This document shows, piece after piece, positions 4,883 to 64,000 of a stretch of 64,000 nt of DNA; position 1 is the first letter of the stretch, and every line of letters starts with the position of its first letter. This DNA comes from Antedon mediterranea. Its lineage: Eukaryota; Animalia; Echinodermata. Below the pieces are notes generated by a model. The model saw only the letters and a list, made by a program, of their open reading frames with translations. It was not told the DNA's origin and did not search any database. The position numbers and the translations under genes were made by a program. The stretch is taken from positions 18,166,001 through 18,230,000 of the forward strand of contig NC_092671.1 of the NCBI RefSeq assembly GCF_964355755.1, read 5' to 3'.

Positions 4883-7800
4883 TTAGGAAGACATTCCTGC
4901 AATTATTTCTGAATAAAATGGACCATACACTTGACGGTTGTGTACAACTAGTTTTTGAAAGCGCGTACTCATTTCTAAGATTTCTTTTTCAACTGTTTTT
5001 AGACCAGCTGGCACATGCTCAGATGGGTTGAATTTCCCTCTAGCAGTCAACATTTTCAACATAAAACTTTTGGCTCTGGAGTCTAAAAAATGAATGAACA
5101 AAATATGTAATATATTTAAATATTCAAGATTATAGGGCTTGGCTATATACATTTTAAAGTTTGTTTGTCAGTGGCAGCAAAAGATCTTCCACTCTTTGTA
5201 GATATCCTATAGTCTTAAGAATAACTAGCAGACATTGGCCACCTGATCTAAGTGATCTAGTAGGCTGGTAAATATGCACAAGCTTAGATAGGTTGACTGA
5301 CGCCAAATTGTGATGTGCCTTGTGATGGTTACAGTGTATTTCAGCCTTTAAAGTATGTATTTTTTTGTGTAAAACATAAAATAAAAATATAATAATAATA
5401 TAGAATAAAATCCAATTGAATATGCCATTTTGCCGTTTTAATAAAGTTTTTTTTTTTTTACTTGCGTAGAAAAATACATCCAAACAAAATGAATTTACTT
5501 ATAAAGACAAATAAACAGTAAAAATGTTTTTCTTAAAATACAGTTACTTCAGGTAAATTACTTTTTTTAATCCAATTGTTGGTCAAAGGGAATAAACTAA
5601 TTGTGACATTCAAATGGCAACAACAAATTAAAACAAATTTCAGGGGGACAATTTATAATAAGCAGAGAATACAATTTATTAGTAATTTTTTCTTACCCAA
5701 TAATTTTTGTACAGAATGGTTTCTATCAGCTACCGCCTGTAGTTGGCTCTTGAGGGTTTCCTGTTTTGTTGCATCCAACATTTGGTAATTGCTCTCTTTC
5801 AAACACTCATTGACCTCTTTACATAAGTAATCACCTATGTTTAGCATTGCAGCTGAATCGTCACTAGAAAACATTTTAAAAGAATTCAATTTCTTTTATT
5901 TCGGAATAATTTCATCCATATCAACAAATGTACAAACAGAAAAAGAAAATTTGCAAACTTTAAGCTTAAATATATAGGATACTTCTCTATCTACATTTTT
6001 ACGTTATGGAGCATATATTTGCAAACCCGAGCAACAAGAATAATAATACAACTATTTAACATACGTTGCATGAAACTAAAATAGATAGATTTTCGCATAT
6101 ACTCATTAAAAGAAGGGATGCCATGTTCAATAAACATCATACTGGCACTACTGCTTCTAGAGACATTCAGTATACGGCGCAGAGCATTATTGTAGCATAC
6201 ATTAGGAGATCTAATTGTCTTCATACGATAGTCAAACCAAAGAGCAGCACAATATAGAGGTTGGTACAGTATGGTATAGTTGTATCAATATGTTTTAAAT
6301 TGTTACAACTTCACAAACTAGTAAATTAACTATTTTAATACAAAAATAAATATAAATATCATTACCAATAAAACTAGACATGAAACTCGTCACTTTGACG
6401 AGTTAGTTATCCGCACAACGACAAACGCCACGTGCACGTCATACGTTAGAATATTGCACACAGATAAAGATTATGGCATTATGACAAGAACTGAAGAATA
6501 TGATATGCTGTTAGTGCTGAATTCTGTCAATTTTGTGTCATATAGTATATACATGCAAACAGTATAATCTGTATACATATTACATACAGTGTAGAATAGG
6601 TGAAATTACGAGACCCGCCATTTATTCAAATTTTTAACAAGGCGACGGTATCAAAATGAAACACTTAAATATCAATTTCAGAAGGAAATTATCTCAGAAA
6701 CAACATATTAACGTGTAGAAGAAATTTGAATACGTAAAATATAGATGCGCACCCTTTTAAATGTGATGAACTATTACGCAAAATATGAAAATACGACTTT
6801 TTTTATTCAACTGGCCATATGATGACGTCACAACATCCGATTGGCAAAATGTTTACATGAATTCGTATTTACAATCCAATAGCTTCCAGAAAACGTTTTA
6901 ATCGTGATTATCACATTTTATTCTTACGAGCTATTACAGATTAAAATTTACTGTAAAGATGAAATTAATGACCCACGTAATTAAAATTTTTAGGCATGAT
7001 GACGTTATAAAAATTAAAATATTTTTATCTCATGCTAAAGAAAGTTGATTGACCTAGACAATATATAAATATAGGAGAAAAAGGAATACAGATAAGCGTG
7101 ATGCGCTCCATTGAATGTGATGAGCAATAACGAAAGAGACAAAAATCCTATATTTTATATTCGTGTGGCCATATGATTACGTCACAATGTTTTTTTAGCC
7201 TTATTGATGCATGATCCGATATCTACAACTCATCAACTTCTAGATTTTGTAATAAAAATAAACGGTTCACGGTTTACTTTAGAAACTATGACTGTTTAAA
7301 AAAAGACATTATTTTGATGATTTTTTAAGCTTTTTCATAAAAAACGCGCACAAATTGTCTAATTCAACGTGTTCGTATGGCGTTATTTAAACTGGAAAAG
7401 GTCTAAATTGTTTTCAAAATTACTAGGAAAGGCTTGAAAAATATAATTCAAGAGAAAAAAATATGGTGTTAACGCTGCGTGTGTACCGCGCGCGTAAAAA
7501 ATTGCGCGCCCGTGGGAATTTTTGACATGCTCAAAATGACATGAAACGCGTAAAAAATTGATTAGAAATTAATTTTGCGCATTTTGAAATTTTAAATGCG
7601 CGTGCGCGCGTAACTTCTTGTGAAACATGCCATTTTTAATCCGTAGAAAGTTTGCCCCTGATATGACTTAAATTTTGTCAAAGTGTCAATACTAAATGAC
7701 TTTTGGTTTTTAATCTATGTTCAATCATTGAAATTCATAAAATTGCGCGTAAGTCACGTTGCACAACTATGACGTCATTCAAAAATAGGAGGTGCACAAC

Positions 7801-10800
7801 TTCACGTAAATGCCCATATGTTGTCAAAGTTATGAAATGTTATGTTTACACATTTTAGAGAAACGCGATCCACAAAAAGGAAGGATGGAAACGAGAATAA
7901 TACAGAAAAAAAATGTTGATCTCATACAATAACAAGGAGTTATCCGCTTGGTATACCAAGCGGATAACTAATAATACTTACTTTGTTCCATCAAGTAGAA
8001 TTTTTATTTCTCTTTTTAGTTTGCTAGGGAAACCCTTCTCTCCTGAGATGGCCATACCTACATTTGTATATGTGACCAATAGAATTGAAGCTATTAATGT
8101 CAATCTTTTTAGCTCCTCTCTTAGTTCTAGAAATCGTCCCTGATCCATGATTATGGTCTATGAACATAAAAAAATGATTTGAACAATTACTACAATTACA
8201 CTTTATATTATTATATATTTGATTTATTTATCAATAATGTACTATCCAAATAATGTTTGTTTATATCTGTCATCGTATTAAAATAATAATGAAAATTCAA
8301 ACAATTAGTATTATAAATGTATAAAATAAAAAATATGAGTTTGATTAAAGCTAATGTTTAATTATTTACCTCAGGAAATAAAGAATTAGTCGGCCAATCG
8401 AATAGCTTGATATAAGCACCATTGATAATTTTTATAGGAGAGATTTGATTGGCTACAGAAACTCCAGCAGTATCTGCTTGGTCTGAGGGGGCAGAGAGCT
8501 CTTCTTTCATATGTGTAAGCCATTTCTTTGTAAGTTCAAGTCCATCTAAAAAAAAAAACAATAAGTTAAGGAAAGTGGTAAGAAGTGGAGAAAAGGGGCA
8601 AGATTGTAAAAGCAGAAATAAGGGCAAGATTGTAAAAGCAGAAAAAGGGTAAAAGCAGAAAAAGGGCAGAGATAGTAAAAGCAGAAAAACAGGGCAAGAG
8701 ATTGTAAAGGCAGAAAAAAGGGTAGAGATTGTACAAGCAGAAAAAAGGCAGAGATTGTAAAAGAGGAGATTGTAAAAGGTGGAGACAAAGGGCAAGATGC
8801 CAAGAAGTGATGGTAACAACAGACTCAACTTACCTTTTTGTGTTTTAAGGAACTCGCTAAATTTATTTCGTTCGTAGTTGACAGATTGTTGTTGAATATG
8901 TGGACGAAATGTGTTGATTGTGAAATTTGCCATATCCAGCTTCATCAGATCTAGTACTCGTAATATTTCGCTATAAAATGAACATTAGCAATATTTAATA
9001 TGAATATATACGTTATAAAGTTTTTCTCTTGAATTCTAAAAAGCGATTTTTAAAAAACAGATAGATTTTGACCCTCACATAAAAGCTCTACAATACCATT
9101 GTATGATGATAATGCAAAAATGTGCACATATATAACAATATAAACATGTTATAATTAAACTTTGAAAAGTTCATACTTCATGTGATTTTTGGAATATTTC
9201 TGACCTATTATAAGTACATGGTTTTTTAAAGGAATATTTTGACCTTATATTTTTACATAAATTGGTCATATGACACCATAAGATAATAAGTTAAAGTGCC
9301 TAATATTAGTAATTACGCAAAACGTATATATTTTATTATAGTATATTTTGGGGAATGTTTGGAAAGTGGACATATTTTGAATTGGTTTTTTTTTCTCTCC
9401 CATTGCCACTCCAGAATGGATTAATCTAAATTGCTCTTAATAAAGATGTGACCCTGCCTTTCGACATTACATAATAGAACTATTTTATGTACAAAATACA
9501 TGAGTCATACATATCATAAAGACAGAAATTAAACCTACCGAAATAAAGCAATGACATCTGTAAGAAGTTTAAGTTTTTCAATTTCTTTGTCTCTGACAGG
9601 AGCACATATTTTCCCCATTAATGTGATTATGTAGCCAGCATACTGGAGTACATCTAAGACTCCATGTTCTGCCTGTTGTTGAATTAATTGTGTGTCAATT
9701 TTCTCATTGATTTCTTCAATTTGTTTACTGTTTTGAGGTAAAATCAACATGTTCAGCGTCTGAATATTGTAAAAAAAAATTGTATTAAAAACTCTCCATA
9801 TTTACAAGTGAACGTAACCGAGATAGAGTTCACAATGCGACGCCATTTTTGTTTGTTCATCATTCAGTTTTGTGGGACAATCATCAATAAATTGGTTGGT
9901 GTTGCTTGTGACACAGAAAACATAGTTAATTGGTCTTCTACCTCTAGACATGGCAGTCTAATAAAGATGTCGGAAATGACCTGATCTTTTGCTGGATAGC
10001 AGTGACCAGCAAATTTAGTTCTATGCTGCGAAACTATGGATGATATTGGATGGACTCTATCTGATATTTCAGCTATGCAAAATAAATATTATTAAAAGTA
10101 AATAAACTAAATATAGAAGTATAAGTAGTTGTAATATTAATCAAATTGTTACAAAGATTAATTAAGAAAGTCAGAAAGAGAGACACTACAAAAAACAAAT
10201 TTAAAAAATACCTCTTTGACTTCACCAAGTAAACCAATAGCACGTGTATAGTTTGGGGGGTCTTCCTGCAGATCATCTTGTAAGCTATCCCAGAATGCTC
10301 TGTGCATTACATCCCTCACCTGTTTCTCTAGTCTGATGAAAAGAAAAAAGTGTAGATACCCAATTTATTGTTCATGTACATAGGTACCACAAAGGTGGGC
10401 CCAACAGTGTTGGAAATAACCACTTTTTTTGGTTGCTTTTAATTTTATATATCGGTATATTTATCAAAAACAATAAAACAACATTGGAAAAATTCATCTC
10501 CTTCCCAAAATATTTTTGAAATCAAATTTTCGTTTTTAGTGAAGGTGAAGATAAACAAAAATAAAACAACAACAAATAATTTTTAAAGTGATTGCCAATG
10601 CACACATCAATTGATGCATTTTTCATAATTTTGTTTAATTCTAGCTCTTATTCACCAATTAACAATTTATTTTCCACATACTACTACTACAACAACTAAG
10701 TACATGGAGGATGCATATTTTAAGATATGTGCAAAGCACTGTTCTTTTAGCTATAAGCACAACACCACTGACCAAACAATCAAAGTATGTATTGGTTACG

Positions 10801-11631: not shown

Positions 11632-12473
11632 AATATTTTCACTGATACAACATGAAATAATACAAAAAAAAATGTTTTTTTTTTGTGTTAAATCCATGAA
11701 AAGACATTCAAAGCAATTAAGCTACTTTAAAGTAGTACACTGTTTCTGTATTTTTATCATATACAGTAATTAACCATAAAATGCACATTTAAGACAAGGA
11801 ATGACATGGTTTAATATTTTTAAAGTAATAACTAATATATATGCATTGTTTACAAATCATCAACAATTGTAGACACAAACAGTAGTAGATTTGAGCTATA
11901 CATTGTATTCAAATTTGTTTCTATATGCATACACAATTATTCAAAATGTATGCTCTTGATTACACAACAATTATGTTGTTATTATTGTGTAATTAGTCAT
12001 GCATGGAAATTGGCACAATCCACAACACTTTGAAAACATGTATGTAGGCCCTAGCGAGCTACTGCTGAAACAGGGAAATAAATATTTATTTTTAAATTCT
12101 TTATCCTATCTGACCCTCACCACGTATACGACATGTCATAACTCATTGTCTTGAATTGAAGGGAAATATAGGCCTAGTATTATTAGTGTCTTCTCTTCTT
12201 GGTCTTGGCATCATAGGCCTAGCTAGGGTAGAGAACAGTCAGGCCTAGTTAGAGTATAGTAGTGCAATAACTGGCCCGGCTGACGGTGTGTTGTTGTCGA
12301 AAAATCAGGCCAAATCGAGCCGCCTATCAAAGTATGTCATAATAGGCCTACTACTAGCTACCTAGTAGGCCTAGCCTTGTCTAACAATAACATGTCATAC
12401 TAGGCCTAGGCCTAGCCTACTACTAGGAGGGCTAGGCCTAGCCTAGCCTATTATAAGTATAACGTTTTATTTG

Positions 12474-13263
12474 GATTAGGCCAAGTTGAGCCGCCGACAA
12501 GTTGAGCCGCCACCAGAAAAACGTTATTTTTTATGGAACGCCAAATGCTAACTTTCGCCGGTGCTCGTTCTATTTATATTATTAGGGATCGATGTACATT
12601 CAAAAGTTTATATATCATGGTTTTTAGTATATATATTATTAAATATTATAATTAAAGAAATAATTATGAAAATCTGGCTTGTAGATTCCAAAATATAAAA
12701 CATCACCGAAAGTGATCGTTTTTAGCCAAAAATGACGTAAACATGTTGCCCCTCAGTCGGCAGTTGTATGAACTAGGCTTACTCCATTTTTCGGTAAAAT
12801 AATTACATAAAATCACGTTTTTTAGTAAAATATTTTGTGTATTTAACATTGTAAAATTCAATAAAATATGATATTAAAAGATTAGTAAATAAAAAATAAT
12901 ATTTATTTAATCTCATTCGAAGAATGTTAATACTCTATTAATTAGTCCTGAGAGAGGACAACGTGACTTTACGTGGTAGGCCTACACGTGGCGAGAAAAA
13001 TTATGAGTGCACTGAATTTTTTCCTCGAAAGATTAAAAACAATTACATTATTAAATATTACTACTTTCCTTTGCTGTGTTGTTAATTATAATATGTAATT
13101 ATATATTATTTATTTTCATGACACAATAAACCAAGACCATGAACTTATGTACTAGGACACCATCCTAATCACTACGCGAAATGTCGTAAAAGACGCATGC
13201 ACTGGGCGTTTCATAGAAATCACCGGCGGCTCAACTTGTCGGCGGCCCAACCGGTCATATCCC
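12474..13263. mobile_element. Mutator-like (MULE) MITE, copy 1
   Basis: 9-bp TSD TTTTATTTG (12465-12473 and 13264-13272). Imperfect TIRs contain gccgccgacaagttgagccgcc / ggcggctcaacttgtcggcggc. Ends are G...C. Co-linear with 23089-23910. Confidence 0.88.
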
Positions 13264-13326
13264 TTTTATTTGTAGACCTACCACAATGACCTTATAACTT
13301 GTATTGTACGCTTTCGCTTAACTTAC

Positions 13327-13520
13327 CTGTACTCTTTGAACTTTAAAATAGCTTGAATTTAACACGTTTTAACAGGTATCGATACAACAAACGTTTCGTT
13401 ATTGTTGAAAGCTAAAATAGATGTTTCTAGATTTTTTTTATTTACGGCTTGGGGAATTATTAAAAACATTATGCCTCATTGATTTTGTAACTCCGCCCCT
13501 CAACTAGCTACGTCACGAAC
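13327..13520 (-). promoter_or_regulatory. Putative non-coding exon 1 and core promoter of TCP11L
   Basis: Strong minus-strand donor CAG|GTAAGT at 13326/13327, a GC box CCGCCC at 13493-13498, a CRE-like TACGTCA at about 13509, and local CpG enrichment. Confidence 0.55.
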
Positions 13521-18064: not shown

Positions 18065-21000
18065 CTAGTGAAAACGATACTGTCGAGCTGGTTTTAAATT
18101 TATGTAAGTTTTCTTCATTTCTTCTGACTCACGAGGGCGCATATCAACATACCTCTCACCTCGTGTTGACACAACTTGGTTACCAATGTAACGTACACGT
18201 TTCTTCTCATCCTATTGATGTTAACAAAATAGTAACAAAATACTTCAGAAACTCTGATTTGGGAGGGAGACACCTTTTTTTTGTAAAACTAGTTTGATAG
18301 TGTAGACAGACCTTTAGACATTATACAAACCTCTTTTTGCACTAGTGGTCGATGATCTATCTTATCATCATCAGTATCAACATATGAATATTTCTGTAAT
18401 ATATTTTCTTTAAGTTTAGTTTCATAATTTTCAGAGTGTGTTTTATATCTTGTTGATGTTGTCATCTGTAAGAAATCATAAAGCAATATAAGTCAGGGCT
18501 ACAGTACAATAAAAACATGTGTAAAAATATGTCTTGAAAATGAACATCTCAAATGGATAAAAATGTGGTCACTATTGTGAAATTATGAAGAGGAACAAAT
18601 TTTGATCTATCATAAAAATGATGATACAATACAACTTGTTGCATCTAAAAGCCCTAGGACAAAAAAATATCAGCCAGTCCAAAAAACAATCTTATTGCAT
18701 AAAGAAATGCGCGAGATTTGAATACAAGATATATAGAAATTCATTCATCAGAAAACACCTACAAACCAACAAAAACAATTACAAAGTGTCACATCACTCT
18801 CGTACAGTATACTGACAAGCATTCATTTAGATAAAAGCTGTTACAAAACCTATTTTTTTGAGAGATGATGGGTTATCGGTAACGTCTACCGCTACATAAC
18901 ACCTCAAATATGCATGGAATGAGTAGATTCTACATGTGCAAATTCATATCCTACCTGTTGTTTAAGTTTTTCTGATTCTCCTGTGTCCTGTCTTAGTAGC
19001 ATCAACTGTGCTGCTTTCTCTACTTCTCCCTCTGCCATTGATAAACAATGCTTTACTTCCAATTGGCAAGAAGCGGGAAACATTTCTAATAACAAACGCA
19101 TATTCTCCTCAATAGATGAATGCTAAAATTAAAAATAGTTGGTTTTAAAAAATGTATTAACACAGGTCCACACTTTTTAAATATTTTTTTGTACTGTATT
19201 AGTATATTACCTTTTCGTCTACTTCTTCTGACACAATCTCTGTATCATTTAACTTTGAATTTTTTCTATCATCTGTTGCATCACATGACGGCAATATAAA
19301 CAGCTCAGGTGTTTCTGAGGATATCTGAGGTGTGTTTACTGTAATATAAAAAAAAATATATATAAAAAGTATGAAAATAATGTAGGTTGGGCAGCGTTGC
19401 CAGCGATAAAATTTAAAATATGCCGTATCCTGTCTCAAATAATGCCAGATTGGGAAAAATAATGCCAGATCCCCAAAATGTGGCCCTAAACAGCGCCACC
19501 AACGGTTGTATGTCTAATAAACGTTTGTAAAACCCCAACTGACACAAAATAGGGCCTAAATTGTATCCCTATGTCGTTCAAAAATTGTATTTTTAGTTTT
19601 GTGAGTAATAACTAATAATTCTAAAAATATCTGGGGTGCGAAAATGGTAATTGCAAATGACACAAACACCAATCCACGAACCCTTCTCCCCCCCCCCCCC
19701 ACCCCCCACAAAAAACCTGTTACAGCCATGGAAATTTAGAATTTTTGAGCTGAAATATGAGAGCTGCTCGATCTTTGCACTTAATTTCAAATATGAAAGG
19801 ATCTTAGCCCACCATAATTAGAAAATGGCAATTATAATTTAAAATAGGAAAAATATATATTAAGTGTCTCCAGGACCTCAGTCCCACCGTGGTTGATAAG
19901 AAAATTTTGAAAAATTCTGATGGCCGGAAATGCCACTTAATTTAAAATATGAAATAAAAATATATTTATTAGTGTCTCCAGGATCTTAGCCCACCATAGT
20001 TCGAAAATGGCAATTATAATTGAAAATAGGAAATCAAAATAATTATATATTAAAAAAGTGTCTCCAGGACCTCAGCCCCACCATGGTTGGGACTGAGGTA
20101 CAAACATTTGGAAAATAGAGCTACTCGATGGCCGGAAATTGCACTTAATTTCAGATATGAAATAAAAATATATTTATTAGTACCTCCAGGATCTTAGCCC
20201 ACCATAGTTCGAAAATGGCAATTATAATTTTAAATAGGAAATAAAAATATATATTAAGTGTCTCCAGGACCTCAGCTCCACCATGGCTGGTGCTGAGGTA
20301 AGAAAATTTTGAAAAATAGAGCTGCTCAATGGGCGAAAATGGCACTTAATTTCAAATATGAAATAAAAATATATTTATTAGTACCTCCAGGATCTTAGCC
20401 CATCATAGTTTTGAAAATGGCAATTATAATTTAAAATAGGAAATAAAAATATATATTAAGTGTCTCCATGACCTCAGCCCCACCATGGTTGGGGCTGAGG
20501 TAAAAAAAATTGGAAAAATAGAGCTGCTCGATGGGCGGAAATGGCACTTAATTTTAAATAAAAATTACCTCGCCCACATGGTCACTACTGGGGCTGAGAG
20601 GTGAAGAACATTTGGAAAAATAGGGTTGCTACGACGATGCAAATGGAACATAATTTGAAATATGGAAAACAAATTCTCCTAGAAGAAATTCTTTTTAAAA
20701 TTAGAGCTTATAGTTACTGGAAATTGCCATTTCAAGGGTTGGGGTAGGGGTGCGGCCACTTATAATTATGAACTGAAACAACAAAACCCCTTTCATAATG
20801 TTTTCGTTAAATTGTCTCTATATCTGGGGATCCAATAACCTGCATGGTCTCTGAAATAGAGCAACATAATTGGCCAATAGCTAGCCTCTTCGGATTTGTT
20901 GTGCTGCCTATATCGCACACACGGTAGTTTTCGAGCAGCCTTCCTATCCGAAGAGTCTATTTAAGTCCGAAACAAAAGGATGGAAGAACTATTGTACGGA

Positions 21001-22241: not shown

Positions 22242-22487
22242 CTTAAAAAATTATTAAAAAAAATATTGTTAGAAAAAAGAAATACAAACTTTTATAATGT
22301 TTGTTATCATAGTAGGCCTAAAATTATTGTAAAAACGGTTGCAAAATAAGTTAAAATATGTTATCATACTGTATATGAAATTATAATAATGAATATTGTG
22401 GGCTAGGCCTAGCTAGCCTTTAAGTAGCATGGCCAGGTCAGGCAAGGCCCAGCCACATGCATAGCATGCAGCAGCCATCATCATATC

Positions 22488-22554
22488 AGGCTCAGCAGAG
22501 AGGGTAGAACTAGGGCCTAGGCTAGGCCCTAGTTCTACCCTCTCTGCTGAGCCT
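22488..22554. repeat. Perfect 67-bp palindrome (33-bp arms, 1-nt spacer)
   Basis: aggctcagcagagagggtagaactagggcctag-g-ctaggccctagttctaccctctctgctgagcct. Confidence 0.95.
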
Positions 22555-22689
22555 AGCCTAGCCTAGGCCTACTACCTGATATACAACTTACAACTAGAAA
22601 AAAGTATCACTTCTTCCTACACAACTGACCCTACCTATCTAGTCTAGCGATGAAGTTTATTTCATTTTATTAATTAACATTATACTTAC

Positions 22690-22985
22690 TTTACCTATCT
22701 AAGGCCTAGAGGCCTAGCCTAGGGGTCTAGAAATAATCTCAAATCAAACGATATGCCGCGCTCAAGAAAAACCAAAACAAACCAAATTGTATGGTGCGCT
22801 GTTGCTGCATTTAACACTGTTGTTATCATCAGTACCTCTGTGAACCACATTCACGAACATAACACCCATTAAATAATGCACTCGTCCACCTGTAATAAAA
22901 CACATGGTACATGTCTCTGTTGACTTGACAAATAGGAGAAGTCTCCGAAGTTTTGTTGTTGGTTTTGTTTTGTTCGTCACTAGAA
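22690..22985. promoter_or_regulatory. Putative bidirectional promoter CUEDC2 / SSBP1
   Basis: The genes are head-to-head. The SSBP1 ATG is at 22986, and candidate minus-strand donors for a non-coding CUEDC2 exon 1 lie at about 22685-22695. CpG density is raised locally. Confidence 0.55.
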
Positions 22986-25595
22986 ATGTTACGAAGAAGT
23001 CTGATCTGGGTAGGCATTATTAATAGAGATATACAAAACGAGAATAAACATAGATAGCGCATAGCCTAGCTAGGCCTAACTTAACTAGGAATAGGCCAAG
23101 TTGAGCCGCCGACAAGTTGAGCCGCCGCCAGAAAAACGTTATTTTCTATGAAACGCCAAATGCTTACTTTCGCCGGTGCTCGTTTCTATTTAATAGAAGT
23201 TCTATTTATATTAATTATTAGATATAACGATGTATATTTCAAAGTTTATATATCACGGTTTTTAGTATATATTATTAAATATTATAATTAAAGAGAAATA
23301 ATTATGAATATCTGACTTGTAGATTCTAAAATATAAGGCCTAAAACATGACCGAAAATGATCGTTTTTAGCCAAAAATGACGTAAACATGTTGCCCCCCC
23401 CCCCTTAGGCGGCAGTTGTATGAACTAGGCCTACTCCATTTTTCGGTAAAATAATTGCATAAAATCACCGTTTTTTAGTAAAATATTTTGTGTATTAACA
23501 TTGTAAAATTCAATAAAATATGATATTATTATTAAAAGATAGTAGATAAAAAACAATAATTATTTAACCTCATTCGAAGAGTATCAATACTCTATTAGTC
23601 CTGAGAGACAACGTGATTTTACACGAGAAAAATATTATGGAGTGCACTGCATTTTTACCTTGAAAGATTAAAAACAATTAAATTATTAAATATGACTACT
23701 TTCCTTTGCTGTGTTGTTATGGCGGTTCAACCGACAAAATTGTAGTATGTAATTATTATTTATTTTCATGACACAATAAACCTAAAGACCATGAACTTAT
23801 GTACTAGGACACCCCTCTATCACTACGCGAAATGTCGTAAAAGACGCACTGGGCGTTTCATAGAAATTACCGGCGGCTCAACTTGTCGGCGGCCCAACCG
23901 GTCATATCCCCTTAACTAGAGGAGTTGACTTTAGGTTAGGCTAGGCCTAGTCTAGCCTGGCCAAGCCAGGCCTCCTCGCTCGAGGAATCATCTAGCCTGA
24001 ATAACTCACCTGGAAATTCCTCTTTCCACTACTGCATGTTGGGGTAGGTTTACAGGTTGTTGTAAACGAGCTTGGTTGGTTGGTTTTGCTGAACAAGCCA
24101 ATGTTATTTATAGACCTAGGCCTACTCCATGTAATTAGAGTGGGTGGGAGGGGAGGCCTAATATACTAATGATAAAATATTTTTTTAAGATTTGACTTTT
24201 TTTCTTTCATCATGTGAATTTGATTATCCACTCTAGGTTGTTGCACAAAGATGGATGAGTAGTGAGCCTACAAGAGTAGAAAAATGTGAGTTTGACATTT
24301 ATACAGTTGTTGTATGAATGTACCATTGCATTACAAGTCCACAAAATACCACACCAAGAATTAGAGAGCAACTGCTAGATTATTGTATTTTATTCCAAAG
24401 GTCGAACCAAGAGCGCCACTGTGACGTGTACGGTATACAATTTGTTTGAGGTCCACATTTTTTCCTAAAGAAATAATTGTTATAAATGTTTGCTATTTAC
24501 AGCGGTGAATAAAGTTGTGTTGATAGGAAGAATTGGAAGAGAACCAGAGATGAGGGGTAGTCAGGAGAATCCATGCACAGCATTTCCCTTAGCCACATCA
24601 GAAAATTTCAAAGATAAAACTGGTGAGGTTCTATTTTATGATATTTTCCCCCTCCTCTCTCTATTTCAAAATCCTCTATCGGTCGAGTGTCAGTGGCATA
24701 AACGCAGATGCCTGAGGCCGCTGGTGTAGGAACCCCCCAATGCTGGAGGCCTTGGGCGTTTTTAGCTTTTTCAACATATTTTAATGCATGATTTTTCCTC
24801 TTGGCACTGCTCAGGGGCCTATGGGTAGCCAGTGAGCGCACATAGCCATAGCTGTTACTGTTGGATATAAATTGTGCAAAATGTGAATGTAAAGTTGTTT
24901 AAAGATCATGACATGCACCCATACACTGGATCTGTATCAGTGTTATAAATCACTTAGTTGCTGTATAAATGTGAATTTTCATAAATATTTTCACAGGGGA
25001 ATACCAACAGAAAACTCAGTGGCATAGGATAGTTATATTCAGACCGTGGCTCAAAGATACAGTATATACATACGCCAAAAAAGGGTAAATATACTAAAAA
25101 ATAATATTTAGTTAACTGAGGTTTTGATTATTAAATTCTTACCTGAAAGTTTCAGCTTCTTCTTATTTCTTGACCTTTGAAGTAATTCAACAACTTCAAA
25201 GAAGATTGAACATGAATTTCTAATCATAATTTTTGGGTTATTATACAATATAATAATGATTACATTTTTTTTATGAATTTAGCTCCAGAATTTATTTAGA
25301 AGGAAAAATAGAGTATGGTCAGTATACGGACGATGATGGCAACACCAATTTCACAACATCAGTAGTAGCAGGTTTGTATAATCATTGTTACCCATTCAGG
25401 CTTGTTACTTACCTGGATAAGTTGGTTTCTAGCCACCAAAGCTTGCAAAAATGGTGCCCATGAAACCAACTTACAGTATTCAAGTATTGTACATGTTCAA
25501 TCTTGATATGGCTCTTGCGTGCTAATAGTCACATATATTTTTATTTTTTAGATGATGTAATATTTTTGGACCATCGTTCAGGTGATAACTACTAA
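22986..25595 (+). CDS. SSBP1: Mitochondrial single-stranded DNA-binding protein
   Basis: Exons 22986-23009 (MLRRSLIW, presequence-like), 24237-24285, 24503-24622, 24997-25084, 25283-25371 and 25552-25595 (TAA), all phase-consistent. OB-fold motifs include [50 protein letters not shown] and ADDVIFL. Confidence 0.95.
23089..23910. mobile_element. Mutator-like (MULE) MITE, copy 2
   Basis: 9-bp TSD CTTAACTAG (23080-23088 and 23911-23919). Same TIRs and body as 12474-13263. Lies in SSBP1 intron 1. Confidence 0.88.
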
Positions 25596-26886: not shown

Positions 26887-54354
<27,468 letters not shown>

Positions 54355-54630
54355 CTTCATTAGTGCCATCAACATGCAAGACAAAATAAAATTAAAGACA
54401 CTTTTTAAAGTCACTCCTGAAAATACATGTCTTCTAAGTTTAAATTTTTAAGTTTTGTGACCCAATAATTATTATGACGAGAAATAAATAAGTTCGTTGA
54501 CTATATTATATATATATATAAATCATACTGTAAATTATAGAAACAGTGCTCATATTCGGAATGATCTCATAATCGCGTCGAGCATAGCTCATTGGCGAAA
54601 GTTCCATATTTTTTAGTTGTATGAAAAAAT

Positions 54631-54701
54631 GTCTCTGGCTGGATTCGAACCTGCAACCTCTCGCTTACAGGGCGAGTATCATACCACTAGACCACAGAGC
54701 C
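54631..54701 (-). tRNA. tRNA-like sequence (Pro-like body, TGT anticodon); probable pseudo-tRNA or repeat-associated Pol III unit
   Basis: GGCTCTGTGGTCTAGTGGTATGATACTCGCCCTGTAAGCGAGAGGTTGCAGGTTCGAATCCAGCCAGAGAC has intact A and B boxes and a cloverleaf with one mismatch each in the acceptor and T stems. Position 33 is C rather than U. It is followed by ATTTTTT. Confidence 0.6.
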
Positions 54702-56121
54702 ATGTATGGTATTATCACAGATTTTCACCCACCAGATACATTCTCTCACACAACAAACGCCCTCACAATCAGTGGAGGCTTAACAAGTCAGAATAAATTC
54801 CAACTTTAATTCGCAACGGTTTTTTAAATAATATTGTGTATATGTAAATCAATGATGTTGCGTAGCACTGTGTAAATTATATATAAATCATACTGTAAAT
54901 TATAGAAACAGTGCTCATATTCGGAACATGATCTCATAATCGCGTCGAGCATAGCTCATTGGCGAAAGTTCCATATTTTTTAGTTGTATGAAAAAATGTC
55001 TCTGGCTGGATTCGAATATATATATATATATATTTTCATATATGAAAAGAGTTCTTGCATGAGTTTCCGTTCAGATTATATTCGACAAAAACGGAACTGG
55101 TTGGTTTCGGTGGAACGAGAAATCAATATTTCGTCATGACTTATAGGCACTTCATAACTAATACATGTGCTTATAAATTAATCATAACTTTACAAAGAAC
55201 ATGCTGATACTTTAAATTTATTTAATACCATCTTCAGTTGCCCAAAACGGAAATACTTCCTTACTGTATTGATCCGTTCAGACGGACATAACGTAACTTA
55301 ATATCTACAGATAAGATATGATATTTTGTAAATAGTTAATAAAAGTTTTTAAGTAGTTAAATATTATGTTATCATCTATATTGTATGGTAGGTCTTTACG
55401 CAAAGCAACCCTTTCCTAAACAGAAAATGTGTTTCATGAAGTTATTGCCTATATAACAATGGTTATTTCCCAACACACTTAAGTGTAATCCTTGCAATTT
55501 GATTGGTTAATTTCACGTTATATTGCACGGTAACGTTATATTTAATAGTTATATAACATGGCATGGAAAATTTTACCGCAATTCACTACCATTATATGCT
55601 TATCTATAAATTGGGATGCAAACGAAATTATTTTAAGAAATTATTATTTGTATGAGAGCACTTCTAATTGTACGCATGCGCAAAATCAAATTTATACGAC
55701 CTTGTCTAAACATCTTACATACATTATTTGGTTAATTTTTAGGCTGTATAGTGCTGTATAAGATTTCTTAATGATAGATTTTTAATTTACAAGGGACAAT
55801 GTCCGCTTTAGCAGTAAAGCATTCGACTTTTGTAACTCCTTTACTAAAGTAGCTATTTCGTCAAGTGGTACTTTACTCTCTCCTACTGTACGGTTGTTAC
55901 ATCATTTGTATTGTCAGATATTGTTTTCCCGTTTGAATTAAGTAATTTGAATCGAGATTCAAAATAGTTTATAAGAATTGATTGATACATACTTTTATCT
56001 TTATCAGAATAAAGAAATTCTAAATTGACGTTTATAAATCGTGGTTCCCGCTAGAACGCAACGCAGCGACGTAACAGTGCTGCAAACATTTGTTTCACGC
56101 AGGCGAGGCAAACACAATTAT

Positions 56122-56741
56122 TACCTCCGCCAAGGAGGTTATGTTTTCACCCCTGTATGTTTGTGTGTGTGTTTGTGTGTGTGTTTGTGTATTTGTGTGT
56201 GTGTTTGTGTGTTTGTGTGTGTGTCTGTGAACAGCCTGGAGGCCACAGTTTTTATCCGATTCTAACCAAATTTGGACACAATGATCTATGCCCAAAAAGC
56301 TTGGACGAGTTCGAATTTGAGAGGGAAAGGTCATAGGTCAAGGTCACAACTAACAAAAAACTATTTTACTGCCTAGAGACCACAGTTTTGATCTGATTGT
56401 CACCAAACTTAGCCACAATGATCAATGACACATCATATAATTGTGGTTAAATTTTGAAGGGTCAGGGTCAAAGATCAAGGTCCACAAAAAAAAAAAAAAA
56501 GAAATAAAAAAATAATTAAAAAAAAAACCCTCAGTGGGACTTGAACCAGCGATCGCAACTGTGAGAGGTGGATACTTAACCATTACACCACACTGTCATC
56601 CACAACTTTGTAGTGTGCAGTTAACATATTTACACTTAGAACTAATAAAAAAAAAATGTAAAAAAAAAATATTCTGGGGGCATTTTATGTAGGGGAATTT
56701 TACAGTAGGCGGAGGTTTGTACTCTCGGAGTACCCTCTAGT
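56122..56741 (+). mobile_element. HINE (DINE-1-like)
   Basis: 5' subTIR/IR acctccgccaaggaggt, a (GT/GTTT)n microsatellite, 3' subTIR ggcggaggt, stem-loop gtactc-tcg-gagtac, a CTAG-TT end and TT flanks. Confidence 0.85.
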
Positions 56742-57893
56742 TATTATTATTTCTTACGTTGCGTAGGTTGCGTTATGTTGCGTCGCTAGTTAAAATCAAA
56801 TACGAATGAACTGAGTGAAATACTTGACTAAACGCAGAGTTAAAATACATAATTAGCAAAATTGTATTTGTAAATACTCGCATCTCAACACTAACGTTTG
56901 CAAAAATGAGTTTACTTATTATTTTTTGTTAATGACACTCTTCGCCACAATAAGTAGATGTTTGAACTTATCCAAACTAATGTCCATTGTTCTTGGTAAA
57001 CTTTTCGAAATAATCGTTATTCCATACTGTCGACAAGTTAATCCGAGTAATTTCAATCTCATTTGATTCAAGTGTTGCCATTTTGATTCATCCATATGGC
57101 AAGATATAGAACGTTATACATCATTAATTTTCTTTAGAATTGACTTAATGACAAAGTCTCTACCATACTAATTTTGAACAAAGTCATTAACGGTCAACTT
57201 CAGTGTGGAAACGGGTATCTTCAAACGATTATTATGAACACGAATAATACTTTCACAAAATAGTAGATCGCTATAGGAGGCCTTGGTCGGGCCTTTTTAA
57301 TTTACACAGATTTTTTTTAAAGAAAGCCCTGAATTATAAGTTAACCCATTGGACTAAACCTGAAGGGTTCCCTTCTTGATGGTTGAACAAATCCGAGGTT
57401 CTAAATGACATTATTTTACTTATTTGCACTTTAATTATAAATCAATGTTTAATCACTTTTGTTGACATTTATAAATTCATTTTAATTTAATTCACGGTTT
57501 AGTTTGAACTACAGATTTTAATTTTCTTTTATATTATTCTATTCCGTAGTCCGTCGAGTGTATTACGGTGGCACTGTAAAACACTAAAATGTCGTTTTTC
57601 CGCGAGACAAACAGACGCGTTATTGTTCCGCATCTAAAAACGAAGATATATCTTAGTTTGAGTAGTCATCTTTCTGAACTACAGGCCGGGCATAAAATAT
57701 TTACATAATTTTTCAATTTTACCCGATAATTAAATTTTCAAAGTCCGCATGAATGCATGTTTAATGCAGAAGTAACGTAACCATTTAAGAGTGGTTATAT
57801 ATTGTATGCTAATAAGTTTGTTACTTAAATGAATGACTAAGCGGTACCTTAACGATGGGAATAATGTATTAATATCGGCAAGAGAATACTTAC

Positions 57894-57924
57894 CGGGATG
57901 AGGATGAATGCCACTGGCAACTAT
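57894..57924 (-). CDS. Candidate small upstream exon of the receptor PTP
   Basis: tttcctttcag|ATAGTTGCC...CATCCCG|gtaagt: 31 nt encoding IVASGIHPHP. It ends in phase 1, matching the mucin-like exon. Supported by splice signals only. Confidence 0.45.
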
Positions 57925-60900
57925 CTGAAAGGAAATGCAAAAATACATTAGGCACATCTTAAAAATTAATTAATTACTCAGTATTGTTAGGAACTCTGTT
58001 CTTTGTAGGGCGCCATATAAAAACCTGTATAGAATAGAATAATAATCTTTAAGTGAATCAGAAGAAGAACAATACCGCTATTTTCTTCATACCCTTTGTA
58101 GTTAAAACGCTTCGGGATAATAGGTAGGCCTAACTCTTGAATAAGACAATTTGCAGTATAGTATTCGCTGGAGTTGCAGTCACGAGAGCACGCGACCAAA
58201 ATATAAAATGTTGATTAATTGCAGACCTAGATGTGGTGAACTCAACCCTAGAACGGTGCAACTTCGTTGTGAACCATACTCATCGTTAAGTTTATCAGGA
58301 AACTGTGAACATTCTGTCATGTGCCTAACATGTCATGTTTATGCCAGGGGCATCCGACTCTTTTTAACCTAATCAAATAAAAACATGAATGTTGTCTGGA
58401 TTTAGAATATGTGATTGAAATGGCGCCAATAAGATAAATATACTACCTTGTTAATACTAGCAAAGCTGTCAACTAAGGACTCACCTAACACATAATGTTG
58501 AATGTAAATAAATACGATTTTAAATGTATCGGGATAAATTTGTTTTTACAGATGTTGCAATGCAATAACAACAGCTCGTCTACTCCAATGAGATACAATA
58601 AAGATCACTTTTCTAAAAAGTGAATAGGTTGGGATCGATTGGATATATCTGAATTCTACAATGTCATAAAAATTGCTACATACTTTGATATCTAAGAAAA
58701 TCTAGTAAAATACAGATAATTGTTTCACACTACAGCATGTACAGTATAATGAAATGTGTAAAATTGTTTTGTACCGCTAGCTTTACTTGCCATTAAAAAT
58801 ACCATAAAGTATTTTAACTATTTAGGCATAGCTCATGCGTGTTGGAACCGATTATAAAACATAAAGCTACTTAAAATGAAAAAAATAAGAAACTATAGGA
58901 TAACCATATGCTGTACGGTTTGAATCAAATCAAATGACGTCATGATCAATAAGAACAATATAGTCATTGTATCGTCACGATATTATTATACAAATCATGA
59001 TTGATTAGACTGTGAAATTATTATTTTCATCAAATGCAGCATAAATGGTTATCATATAGTTTTTCTAATTTATATTTTATGTATATGTATATTTATCTTA
59101 TAGCTATCGTCCTAGCATAAATAAGCCTAGTCAGTAGGTCTACTAATATTGCTTCTCCTTTCTTAAACAATTTTGTATAGCCTATTCATTAGAATTTATT
59201 TATACGGTCTTTGTGGACAGCTCGCGTTAGATTCTTTGCGCTAAACTAGGACGAATAAAATAAGTACACTCACACAAGCGCACAGAGTAAATCTTCGGCA
59301 TACGTGCATAACTCAGAGTAGGCCTATAATGATACAGTAGAGTATAAGTAAAATGTGTGTATGTTTTGCTTTGAAAATTACATGAATGTAGGCCTAACAT
59401 AATCCAACGCGAGAATAAGCAACTGTAGTAACGACCGCTGTCTTTAATCACCGTTTTTAAGAGCACGAAAGAATCAAAATCTAAACATACTTTCTAAATA
59501 TCAACATTTTGTCATTGAAAAAGTGTCAATTTGCATACGAGTGTATTTTTCTTCATTGGCCACTCATCATAATGGTATTTCGGCATACCTTTGACAAATT
59601 AAGCATGTAATGAACATATTATTGTTATTGCAAACATTATTGTTATTTGACAGGGATAAGTTTCACCTCTTGCAGGCCATGTGTGGTTCATTCCATGCCA
59701 TTACACACCGATTTTATCCGCCTAGTGAATACACAAGAAATCTGTGGATCGGTTTCAACGCCTGCTGTGTCTAGAAAAACATATTTAGCAACGGGCTTCT
59801 GAATATCCGATATTTTGTTTAATTCAATTACCTGTGGATTCCACTGATTTCTAGCTGTCATTTACACTTTCAATAACCCTTGTGAAATCAATAGAATAAC
59901 AGAGCTTTGCACGTTCTAGGCAATCACCTTTTTGTAGGGTAAAGGTTTTGAATCATAATCATTGAAAGCCCCATGGTTATAATTATGTTACCATTTCTGT
60001 ATGATATCAACAACGACAGCTTCATGAAGGTATGTTCAAGAAAATGACGTATTACCTATACCACTAATTGGATTACACATTAATGTCCTCTTACCTCTGA
60101 CTTACCTACATCATGTTGATAAGTAATTTTATAGGTTAAAACTGTAAAATAACAGGCTAAATAGGACTATACGTTACTTTCTAGTTTCTGTAAATCCAAG
60201 GAAACACAATTTTGCTTTGCAAACTCCGTGTTTGTTCTGAAAAAGTCTGTGGTGCCTATTAAGGTCTACCAGAGTTACTGGAAAATGTCATTGTCAATGT
60301 CAACTATAACTAGCTACTGTACAACGACGATTTTCACACCTCTAAGCAAACTAGTTTAACGGTAACTTTTGTGAACTCTCACTAAACTTGCTAGCTTTGG
60401 AAAACGTTTCTTTTCAGGCACTGAGTTTGCAAACTAAATTTCCTAAACAGGATTTAAAGTATAGCAGTTTGGTTTCAATTCGGTTCGGAAAACGGAATAT
60501 TAAATTTAAAAACAAAATGACTGTGACAGACAAAATTAGTGGTTCACGAGTGGGACCTTATATTTTTTTACTCCTAATTTGAATATTTCAGATCTCATTT
60601 GCATATTCCATTGTGTGACCGAGGTGTGATCATTTTGGAATGTCATCTCATACTATGTGTTAAGCCAGGGAAGATCACTACACTATTTTCTAGTTATTAT
60701 TACTTTTTTGGTTGTTGCTTTGTTTGACTATTGTTTCAAATTAAGCATTGTAATGGTGATTACGTCATTTATTTGGGACAAAGCAATGTAACAAATTTTA
60801 TTATTTTAATAGTTGAGGGTATTCTCTAAAGGCATATATTTTGCCTAATTAGGTTTACAGAACCTTTTATGTTTTTAGGCAGTGAAGAGTGTTTTAACAC

Positions 60901-61479
60901 GCGCGAAAAGGCCATGATAATGTGTGAGATAGGGAAGAGTTACCTGCTCATCAGGGATTACACTAATTGCATAGGCGGTTATATTTTCACGCCATGAGTT
61001 ACTGACTACGATCATTGCTTGATATATTCTTCGTAACAGTATATTTGATACATCATACAATTACATGAGTTAGTTTTAATGGTAGGCCTACATAGTCGCA
61101 AGTGAAATATTGATATCGTGTCTATCTGCTTCTTACAGATGAGAAGTAATTTAAATTAATACACTCTATTGGCAACAGTTACAAAAATATCATTCGGTAG
61201 GCCTATTTTTATAGATTAGACTATTTTGAAAGAACAATTTTTCCTCAAGAGATATTTCATATTATTATTATCATGTTATACGTTTAAATATTATTATAAT
61301 GTGTTGAAATACGAGACACTAACTCATGTCTATCGCAGATATTATCTTCTAGAACAAGGCAATTATACTGTCACTCTCAAGGATTCGATTACATATTTTG
61401 ACAGAAGATGACATGTTTTAGGTGGCTACTGACATGGATCCGATTACATAAATCATTGTTTTTAAGTTTTGATAGGTTA

Positions 61480-62397
61480 TTGTTTGATTGATAGATGATT
61501 GTTGGATTGATCGGTTATTGTTTGATTGATCAGTTATTGGTTTGATTGATCGTTTATTGGTTTGATTGATCGTTTATTGGTTTGAATGATAGGTTATTGT
61601 TTGATTGATATGTTGTTGATTTGATTGATAGGTTATTGGTTTGATTGATAGGTTATTGGTTTAATTTAATAGGTTATTGTTTGATTGATAGGTTATTGTT
61701 TGATTGATAGGTTATTGTTTGATTGATCAGTTATTGGTTTGATTGATCGGTTATTGGTTTGATTGATCGGTTATTGTTTGATTGATATGTTATTGATTTG
61801 ATTGATAGGTTATTGGTTTGATTGATAGGTTATTGGTTTGATTGATAGGTTATTGGTTTGATTGATAGGTTATTGGTTTGATTGATAGGTTATTGGTTTG
61901 ATTGATAGGTTATTGGTTTGATTGATAGGTTATTGGTTTGATTGATAGGTTATTGGTTTGATTGATAGGTTATTGGCTTGATTGATAGGTTATTGGTTTG
62001 ATCGATATGTTATTGATTTGATCGATAGGTTATTGGTTCGATCGATATGTTATTGGTTCGATTGATAGGTTATTGGTTTGATCGATATGTTATTGATTTG
62101 ATTGATAGGTTATTGGTTTGATTGATATGTTATTGGTTTGATTGATAGGTTATTGTTTGATTGATAGGTTATTGGTTTGATTGATCGGTTATTGGTTTGA
62201 TTGATATGTTATTGGTTTGATTGATCGGTTATTGATTTGATTGATATGTTATTGGTTTGATTGATAGGTTATTGGTTTAATTTAATAGGTTATTGTTTGA
62301 TTGATATGTTATTGGTTTGATTGATCGGTTATTGATTTGATTGATATGTTATTGGTTTGATTGATCGGTTATTGGTTTGATTGATATGTTATTGATT
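61480..62397. repeat. 19-20-bp minisatellite, about 0.9 kb
   Basis: Tandem ttgattgataggttattggt units with minor variants. Confidence 0.97.
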
Positions 62398-64000
62398 AAA
62401 CGATTAATTTATCAATCAATCATCTTATCGTTAATCGAATACTGCAGTATATTACTGATTCAATCGATTTATTCTGTCGTAATATATTGAAGTTATAAAA
62501 TGTGTAAATTTTAATTTGACAATGATGAGAGAGGCATATACAAAATTATAATATTGCTTCTCCACTGCGATAAGAACATGAGGAAGGCGTAGTCGTTCAA
62601 ATTCGGTTTCCAAATGGAAGTTATTGACAGATCAATAGCATTACACGTCATTTTATTATACATAATTTATTCGATTGGTCTGGGTGGGTCCTGTTTTGTA
62701 ATTCCCCACTGCTGAGAATCACCCAAATTGCTAAATATTCAAACGGATGTTCTGATAAAAATAATATGTTGTTGATATATAATTTTATTAGTCTATTTTG
62801 CAAAATGCAAACTGTTGATAATGAATTTACATTTCGCAAATCATTGGCAATGAGAAAATGTACCATAAATAAAAAATATGGCTAAATATTGTGCAGAGAT
62901 CAAAAGAAAATCGCTATGTCAAATTTATATCATAAGCATGCTTTCTATTTATTTTCTTCATACAATTGTATAAAACTCGAAAAATAAATGTTAACTCTTA
63001 GTAAAGCTTTAATAATGCTGTGATGTGTTTTCACTAGTAATGAATCGCCTTTGCAATGCTGTATCGGCATAAATTTGCAAATTAACGGCAGGCGGAAGAA
63101 TGATGTATCGTATATTATTGTCACACTTTTACTATAGTTTTTCTTTTCACTCTGAGGAAACGTGGTTTTATATCTTCGAAGTGCAATATTTTATTTCCAA
63201 TTCTGTCACAAAGGATTATAATTTTCTGAATGGATGTCAGTACACATGCAGATGTGCATAAAACACTTGAACACTGTAATAAAAAGTACAGTTTCTTGTT
63301 GCTAAAACCTGAAGCGGTGTTATCCATAATGAGTTAAACTCCGTTGGGAAAACTAGCCATTTTTTTATATCTTTGATGTATTCCGTATTGAGAGACATAT
63401 TAAAAATTAACACATATTAGAAACTGAATGTGCTTTTTATCAATTGTAAGCTTATTGAGTTTGCTGTTTTTTCGAGCCTATACATTTCTAAGATACAGTT
63501 CTAAGAATTCATAAATAAAAACCATTAAACAAATTCAGTTTTTTTGAAACAATATAGTATAATCAGTATATTGACGTAGCCTACTTTTTAAATCTCAATT
63601 TTGTTTCCTTTAAAAAATATCTCGATATATGTATATAAATAAATGTAATTTCTCAGGATATCACACTGTTACCACCGGCCTGCGATAACGAACATTTCGC
63701 CGAGTGACTCCCGTGAGACGGGCAGGACTCATTAAATAACGTAATTATTGCTATAAATATAAATAATGTTCGTAGATAAGACTACTCGGTACCTGGAACT
63801 CCGAGGGACAAAACTGTTAGGCCTATATTTCATTGATATTAAAAATGTACATCATTTTTAAAGTTAACGTGTTATACGTGTTTGTTCTATGTATCTGACC
63901 CCATTTACTTCGTATTAGCAGTAATTAGTAGTCTAGCTTTTCTGACGTATAGTTCCTGTTACAATACCTCAATTCTAATGAAATACAGTCTAAGCAAATG

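What the first reader, a model, noticed from the sequence alone, without database searches (positions are those of the whole stretch)
12040..12460. Promoter-proximal pile-up of TA-anchored TAGGCCTA / TAGCCTA motifs: a candidate site-directed micro-insertion process
Seen: TCP11L intron 1 carries concatemers such as taggcctaggcctagcctactactaggagggctaggcctagcctagccta. The same happens around the CUEDC2/SSBP1 promoter (22310-24160), and single copies are scattered through the PTP introns. My rough by-eye count is about 50 AGGCCT in the window, whereas base composition predicts only a handful. I found none between about 2100 and 12000. Units share their TA ends, as expected if TA is repeatedly converted to TA-GGCC-TA or TA-GCC-TA. 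Established: cut-and-paste transposons that target TA leave TA-NNN-TA footprints. Inference: these are accumulated excision footprints of a TA-targeting element with GGC...GCC ends that prefers open chromatin, or scars of another sequence-adding repair activity. I know of no description of this as a system.
Basis: partly seen in the sequence, partly recalled or inferred. Interest (0 to 1): 0.78.

Follow-up and report, generated by a model that had tools for sequence, protein, structure and literature searches.

The report
Transposon exit scars stacked near promoters
In this feather-star DNA the eight-letter palindrome TAGGCCTA is about 45 times too common and stacks up in chains near the 5' ends of two genes, most likely as scars left when a cut-and-paste jumping gene with GG…CC ends repeatedly landed at TA sites and left again, although that jumping gene was not found here.

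Summary
Observation confirmed. The window is crinoid DNA (exon 100% identical to Antedon mediterranea). TAGGCCTA occurs 38 times against 0.85 expected, 7 of them in 12040-12460 (0 of 20,000 permutations). Chains parse into TA-sharing units (GGCC, GCC/GGC, GC, C/G). Two copies of a Mutator-like MITE differ by GGCC-bearing insertions at TA. A second individual carries a different chain at 22512-22566, lacking a 32-nt inverted duplication. The same spectrum appears in contigs from other organisms. Best reading: end-joining footprints of a TA-targeting, GG-ended IS630-Tc1-mariner element (pogo/Fot-like is a lead only), with repeated hits near gene 5' ends. Against: no donor found; no clean TA versus TAGGCCTA allele pair seen (12 of 12 covered 8-mers shared, 0 of 54 clean indels elsewhere); TCP11L's first exon is inferred; the 5' regions were drawn after seeing the data. 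This scan noted the same scar earlier in other genomes. A new variant of a known kind.

The parts
12040..12460 (.). Scar cluster A: 7 TAGGCCTA and 11 units with a core of 3 or more letters, in runs at 12045-12053, 12169-12179, 12214-12225, 12343-12373, 12398-12425 and 12433-12450; about 100 of 421 bases lie in units
11642..13326 (-). Inferred first intron of the TCP11-family gene (acceptor before the ATG exon; GTAAGT donor at 13326; GC-box and TGACGT words near 13500). Not shown by RNA
   Evidence: sequence; Tcp11 Pfam hits in downstream exons
12474..13263 (+). Mutator-like MITE copy A with a 9-bp target duplication; not the TA donor. Carries an 8-mer at 12977 inside a short insertion that holds an inverted copy of its flank, absent from copy B
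23089..23910 (+). Mutator-like MITE copy B with a 9-bp target duplication. Carries a 7-letter GGCC insertion at about 23334 (TAA to TAA-GGCC-TAA, equally TA to TA-AGGCC-TA), absent from copy A; the 8-mer at 23426 is shared (one substitution in copy A)
22310..24124 (.). Scar cluster B on both sides of the SSBP1 first exon: 7 TAGGCCTA (one inside the MITE) and 15 units with a core of 3 or more letters
22488..22554 (.). Perfect inverted duplication (32-bp stem, GGC loop) centred on a TA-GGC-TA unit; a second allele in run X1 lacks the right arm and has other TA-anchored units
22895..23011 (+). SSBP1 first exon as covered by a spliced contig of run X5, joined to about 24240; a contig cannot fix the start site
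27550..63825 (.). 22 dispersed TAGGCCTA in PTP introns and beyond (0.6-0.7 per kb), none in coding sequence; the copy at 28804 overlaps a splice donor

Best explanation
TAGGCCTA and its shorter forms are TA-sharing units that differ between copies and alleles, and they are most likely end-joining scars of a TA-targeting cut-and-paste transposon with GG…CC ends that likely landed and left repeatedly near these gene 5' ends. Inferred steps: (1) insertion duplicates TA; (2) excision leaves 2-3 element letters as 3' overhangs on each flank; (3) joining gives TA-GGCC-TA as the main product and GGC/GCC, GC, G/C and GGGCC/GGCCC as minor ones; with GGC ends the self-complementary terminal GC would favour exactly the 8-mer; (4) each scar turns one TA into two, and a later hit on one of them lengthens the chain; (5) some breaks are repaired with templated, inverted copies of the flank. 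Shown here: enrichment, unit structure, clustering, indel differences at TA, and exon avoidance. Not shown: the donor, the overhang length, germline activity today, and chromatin state.
For: 44.7-fold enrichment specific to GGCC between two TA; 38 of 54 AGGCCT have T before and A after. MITE copies differ by two GGCC-bearing insertions at TA. A second allele of cluster B has different units, with 47 and 65 letters of matching flank and depth 27. Loci L008 and L036 differ by TA versus TA-GGCCC-TA and by two extra units at one 8-mer. Away from the search pattern in 114 metagenome loci: 8-mer 177 vs 3.4 expected, 7-mers 203 vs 29, GGGCC/GGCCC 17 vs 1.4. Isolated 8-mers favour G (window 20 vs 8.0) or a purine (loci) at -1, T at -2 and A at -3 in both sets. 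0 of 38 in coding exons, 4.5 expected, p=0.009. Sleeping Beauty leaves a parallel series of shortened footprints (bioRxiv 10.1101/659086, passages). Tc1/mariner footprints equal the terminal 2-4 letters of the element (PMC6943129, passages). Fot/Fot-like pogo TIRs begin GGG, GGC, GGT or GGA with TAA or TAAA duplications in the rows seen (PMC7386202 supplement 3), and the text gives TA duplications for 50 Fot-like elements. The pogo element Passer favours 5' ends and start sites and leaves 0-4 bp footprints (PMC9976928). Templated inserts follow Tc1 excision (PMC4490562, passages).
Against: No donor: no TA|GG…CC|TA element in the window (best 17 of 24 matches, between scar chains) or in the loci, and no transposase domain in 166 of 166 window ORFs or 16 locus ORFs. 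No clean TA versus TAGGCCTA allele pair: 12 of 12 8-mers covered by long X1 contigs are shared, and 0 of 54 clean indels among the loci are the hexamer. My prediction that a 6-letter deletion in X1 sat on an 8-mer failed; it lies in 22429-22459. Polarity of the MITE indels rests on two copies with no outgroup. TA-GG-TA/TA-CC-TA, the analogue of the usual +4 Tc1 scar (PMC13148408, passage), is not enriched (29 vs 37; 99 vs 93). In the window, neighbours lean to the pattern that slippage would give (10 vs 4, p=0.18). Mean CpG o/e at 8-mers is no higher than in shifted controls (133 of 252). The echinoderm pogo rows seen in the supplement start with CAG.
Confidence: 0.7

Rival explanations
1. Single scars are footprints, but the chains grow without further transposition, by slippage or iterative templated repair that duplicates the scar's own ends (GCCTA or CTA on the right, TAG or TAGGC on the left).
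For: Window neighbours: 10 duplication-type vs 4 opposite-type. TAGCCTA outnumbers TAGGCTA 15 to 5 on the + strand (p=0.04). Ordinary tandem duplications occur nearby (7 letters at about 22582).
Against: Opposite-type neighbours are common (13 vs 18 in 83 de-duplicated loci, though 8-mers inside the search pattern were skipped, which removes duplication-type cases). GC units are not duplication products (3 in the window). Cluster A holds five separate 8-mer runs and a GGCCC unit tens of bases apart, which needs several seeds. Only 4 of 50 sides of dispersed 8-mers have any neighbour.
Confidence: 0.12
2. A transposon-independent process, such as a TA-cutting nuclease or domesticated transposase plus a polymerase that adds GGCC, writes these units.
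For: No donor found here. The 8-mer dominates while the +4-type scar is not enriched. Inverted templated inserts occur at two sites.
Against: A fixed palindromic insert between duplicated TA is what excision chemistry gives, and a second footprint-like class (TACAGTA/TACTGTA, 56 vs 16) is present. Earlier, unchecked scan notes report a GG-ended pogo donor in other genomes.
Confidence: 0.08
3. The motifs are selected transcription-factor sites of the ZFX type (AGGCCTAG near start sites).
For: ZFX binds AGGCCTAG about 240 bp downstream of start sites in human cells (PMC5848610, passages). The window holds 24 AGGCCTAG, and the clusters are at 5' ends.
Against: 21 of those 24 are preceded by T, which the ZFX motif does not ask for. 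Alleles differ within the species. Units also appear inside MITE copies and throughout PTP introns. No crinoid ZFX-type factor was looked for.
Confidence: 0.05
4. The donor duplicates three letters (TAA/TTA; Fot, Zator or PIF/Harbinger type) rather than TA.
For: The cleanest insertion here reads TAA to TAA-GGCC-TAA. TA-AGGCC-TA forms occur 4 times vs 0.5 expected. Most Fot elements have TAA duplications (PMC7386202).
Against: The main class is TA-GGCC-TA with varied flanks; ATAA/TTAT and TTAA contexts are depleted (2 vs 9.5 and 1 vs 4.1). The AGGCC form is not enriched in the loci (2 vs 1.6).
Confidence: 0.05

Closest known systems
Sleeping Beauty / Tc1-mariner excision footprints (10.1101/659086; PMC6943129; PMC13148408; passages read)
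   Same: Duplicated TA around a few letters, a series of shortened variants, end-joining origin.
   Different: The inner letters are GGCC rather than CAG/CTG. A 4-letter palindromic core dominates, while the 2-letter (+4) form is not enriched. The scars are accumulated in a natural genome at about 0.6 per kb and chained at hotspots.
pogo superfamily: Fot/Fot-like and Passer (PMC7386202 passages and supplement 3 rows; PMC9976928 passages and section 21)
   Same: GG-starting TIRs with TA, TAA or TAAA duplications exist in Fot/Fot-like. Passer favours gene 5' ends, has a G-TA-C-centred target and leaves 0-4 bp footprints.
   Different: The GG-ended rows I saw are from fungi, red algae and oomycetes (7 places per term shown of 99 GGG hits); the echinoderm rows seen start with CAG. 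No such element was found in this window.
Polymerase-theta end joining after Tc1 excision (PMC4490562, passages)
   Same: Templated inserts copied from next to the break.
   Different: There the spectrum is highly variable deletions; here one fixed insert dominates and templated inverted copies are a minority (2 sites seen).
ZFX/ZNF711 motif AGGCCTAG (PMC5848610, passages)
   Same: AGGCCT core, enriched near start sites.
   Different: The ZFX motif is one-sided and protein-bound in human cells; the crinoid word is TA-bounded on both sides and polymorphic.

Membership tests
IS630-Tc1-mariner excision footprint | Core flanked by TA on both sides | tested here: met
   38 of 54 AGGCCT have both flanks; GGCC 44.7x among TA-N4-TA spacers
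IS630-Tc1-mariner excision footprint | Is an insertion relative to an empty TA allele | tested here: inconclusive
   Met for variant units (chain alleles); no clean hexamer pair: 12 of 12 shared with X1, 0 of 54 clean indels in loci
IS630-Tc1-mariner excision footprint | Inner letters equal the terminal 2-4 letters of a real element | not testable with these tools
   No genome is held for this window; no donor in the window or loci
IS630-Tc1-mariner excision footprint | Series of shortened forms from trimmed or asymmetric ends | tested here: met
   GGC/GCC, GC, G/C and GGGCC/GGCCC units in chains; 7-mers 7x and 9-mers 12x in loci; GG/CC forms not enriched
IS630-Tc1-mariner excision footprint | Palindromic target preference around TA | tested here: met
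   A-T-purine before TA in 23 isolated window sites and 144 locus sites; modest effect
pogo (Fot-like) donor | DDE_1 transposase inside GG-starting TIRs with TA duplication | tested here: inconclusive
   0 transposase hits in 166 window ORFs and 16 locus ORFs; only 64 kb of this genome could be read
The ~790-bp MITE as donor | TA duplication and GG…CC tips | tested here: not met
   9-bp duplications at both copies; its TAGGCC is internal. The Mutator-like label follows from recalled family traits
ZFX-type binding site | One-sided AGGCCTAG with no 5' T requirement | tested here: not met
   21 of 24 are preceded by T
ZFX-type binding site | Conserved position and protein binding | not testable with these tools
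   Organism B did not align over cluster B

The most novel reading that the evidence does not exclude
In crinoids and other invertebrates a GG(C)-ended transposase revisits its own scars in open, unmethylated germline chromatin, so TAGGCCTA chains are a still-growing fossil map of promoter accessibility, a major source of promoter-proximal indels and inverted duplications, and a supply of AGGCCTAG words that host factors could adopt.
Probability: 0.25. Interest if true: 0.7.

Novelty: new variant of a known kind. Interest (0 to 1): 0.42.

Why it matters
Excision is usually invisible in genomes, so past DNA-transposon activity is counted from surviving copies. A fixed, searchable scar at about 0.6 per kb would count excisions directly, show where the element went, and explain a class of small indels near promoters. 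The different placement of two scar classes in one window (TAGGCCTA at 5' ends, TACAGTA/TACTGTA in gene bodies) offers a way to compare target choice between transposase families in a wild genome.

Tried and rejected
No whole genome is held, so genome-wide counts and a donor search were not possible. The ~790-bp MITE beginning near TAGGCC looked like the donor and was rejected on its 9-bp duplications. The 22488-22554 hairpin as a tiny GGC-ended MITE was rejected because an allele keeps the left arm and lacks the right. Read-laying on 20600-34500 was swamped by repeats (487 indel rows not shown). Organism B did not align over 22150-23060, and 9 indel rows were not shown. No run was on record as RNA; X5 behaves as spliced RNA. 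The predicted 6-letter allele at 22313 or 22404 was not found. CpG link: only 1 of 38 8-mers lies where CpG o/e is under 0.6 (1 of 252 shifts as low; threshold chosen after the fact), but the mean is not raised. A DDE_1 search of five locus records was not possible. (bacterial promoter scan) was irrelevant. Print searches: TAGGCCTA anywhere, 283 papers, 40 listed, none on this topic by title or abstract start; 0 hits; 2 hits not opened; 15 of 72 listed, one opened, none on this scar by title or abstract start. PMC7325037 passages gave nothing on GG ends. Six GGC-five-letter terms had 0 hits in the pogo supplement. bioRxiv supplements were not seen and may hold further footprint data.

Full report
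Setting. An exon at 1024-1245 is 100% identical to a band-3-like protein of the feather star Antedon mediterranea. Pfam supports, in order, an anion exchanger, a TCP11-family gene (minus strand), a B-box/NHL gene, an SSB gene (plus) and a receptor tyrosine phosphatase (minus). No whole genome is held.

The observation. The quoted chain is at 12401-12450. TAGGCCTA occurs 38 times against 0.85 expected from an order-2 background, and AGGCCT 54 times against 5-17. Among TA-N4-TA words only GGCC exceeds 4-fold. TAGCCTA/TAGGCTA occur 20 times against 6.7, and TACAGTA/TACTGTA 56 times against 16. Seven 8-mers lie in 12040-12460, which none of 20,000 permutations matched; the empty 10-kb stretch alone is borderline (0.053). 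None of the 38 is in coding sequence against 4.5 expected on an approximate exon list; one overlaps a splice donor.

Anatomy. Cluster A parses as TA-separated units, for example GGCC-C-C-GC-CC-G-GGCC and C-GGCC-GGCC-GCC-C-C. A unit shares a TA with an 8-mer at 9 of 14 sides in cluster A, 6 of 12 in cluster B and 4 of 50 elsewhere, against 4.5% background. Nearly every unit is a prefix of GG(C) joined to a suffix of (G)CC.

Is it insertion? Two copies of a ~790-bp element (12474-13263 and 23089-23910) have 9-bp target duplications, so the element is Mutator-like (family traits recalled) and not the donor. The copies differ by a 7-letter GGCC insertion that duplicates TA(A), and by an insertion holding the 8-mer and an inverted copy of the flank. 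With two copies the direction is inferred from the duplicated TA. Run X1, which differs from the window at several fixed letters, has a second allele at 22512-22566: it keeps TA-GGGCC-TA, adds two units to its left, and lacks the 32-nt inverted duplication and some of the following units of the reference. That duplication is centred on TA-GGC-TA with a GGC loop, a weak hint of a 3-letter overhang. Against this, 12 of 12 8-mers under long X1 contigs are shared, and a 6-letter deletion that I expected at an 8-mer lies elsewhere. Dispersed scars therefore look older and chains more variable, on very few haplotypes.

Other organisms. A scan for one 19-letter chain returned 114 metagenome loci, 80 with full flanks, none similar to the window by BLAST. 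Away from the pattern (299,114 bases, duplicates included, loci selected for carrying a chain) the spectrum repeats: 8-mer 177 vs 3.4, 7-mers 203 vs 29, GGGCC/GGCCC 17 vs 1.4, GGCGCC and GGGCCC 0, GG/CC 99 vs 93. Of 82 indel contexts in 48 locus pairs, 54 were clean; one is TA to TA-GGCCC-TA and none is the hexamer. The same pair differs by two extra units at an 8-mer. Isolated 8-mers share an A-T-purine context before TA in both data sets. Contigs of organism B from other loci also carry chains.

Position. A spliced X5 contig places the SSBP1 first exon at 22895-23011, so cluster B flanks a gene start. For TCP11L a donor at 13326 and promoter-type words near 13500 suggest that cluster A lies in intron 1, 70-490 bp from the donor before the MITE arrived (inferred). 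The two 5' regions hold 15 8-mers and the three adjoining gene bodies 0, whereas TACWGTA splits 2 to 15 (Fisher p=2e-7). The regions were drawn after the fact and chained units are not independent, so that figure overstates the case. The CpG evidence is mixed. Both MITE copies landed beside the clusters, which fits accessible DNA.

Mechanism. Tc1/mariner excision leaves 3' overhangs, and joining gives the terminal 2-4 letters between two TA (PMC6943129), with a series of shorter forms (10.1101/659086). GG…CC ends give the units seen. With GGC ends the terminal GC of the two overhangs can pair and yield TA-GGCC-TA directly, a full overlap gives GGC or GCC, and the lack of GG/CC enrichment is expected; this is my inference, and GGG ends with mixed cuts are not excluded. 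Each scar doubles the local TA, and a 5'-seeking element such as the pogo Passer (PMC9976928) would return. Templated inserts after excision are known (PMC4490562). GG-starting TIRs occur in Fot/Fot-like pogo elements (PMC7386202). Slippage may add to chains: neighbour polarity is 10:4 in the window and 13:18 in 83 de-duplicated loci, neither significant.

Donor. Not found: no TA|GG…CC|TA pair in the window or loci, and no transposase domain in 166 window and 16 locus ORFs. Earlier unchecked notes of this scan report the same scar in other genomes, some with a GG-ended pogo donor. I reuse that as a lead and could not test it.

Verdict. A real feature, best read as a new variant of known excision footprints. 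My paper searches showed no description of this scar, within a library that lacks most subscription papers. What this window adds is a crinoid case, a polymorphic chain with an inverted duplication, and an internal control class with different placement. Interest 0.42.

Noticed in passing
window 22165-22241 (minus): The spliced X5 contig over the CUEDC2-like ATG exon runs on by exactly 30 letters that match nothing upstream in the window (19 letters searched with up to 4 mismatches), and X5 has no cover at 22739-22893. It could be a distant or missing first exon, a paralogue, or a trans-spliced leader; one paper search found nothing for crinoids.
   Followed up: partly
whole window: TACAGTA/TACTGTA (56 vs 16 expected) and TACCGTA/TACGGTA (14 vs 5) look like further footprint classes; the first shows no 5' bias.
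   Followed up: partly
window 28804-28811: An 8-mer sits on a PTP splice donor: the donor GT overlaps its first TA and the site still reads GTAGG.
   Followed up: partly
window 42045-42566: MITE-like element with 31-nt inverted ends and internal 17-18-bp repeats.
   Followed up: no
window 27644-27768, 29100-29125, 43398-43540, 43925-44082: Very high-copy ~150-bp palindromic MITE family; it dominates the laid contigs of both organisms.
   Followed up: no
window 19798-20560, 46505-46978, 61469-62394: Tandem arrays of 202, 26 and 20 bp units.
   Followed up: no
window 22429-22459: GGCC-rich tract without intact TA units that carries a 6-letter deletion in X1; possibly a decayed chain.
   Followed up: partly
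window 7300-7826 and 34734-35238; 34607-34702 and 35234-35325: Dispersed ~520-bp repeat; the second copy lies between two ~95-bp direct repeats that end in GTCG/GTCT microsatellite.
   Followed up: no
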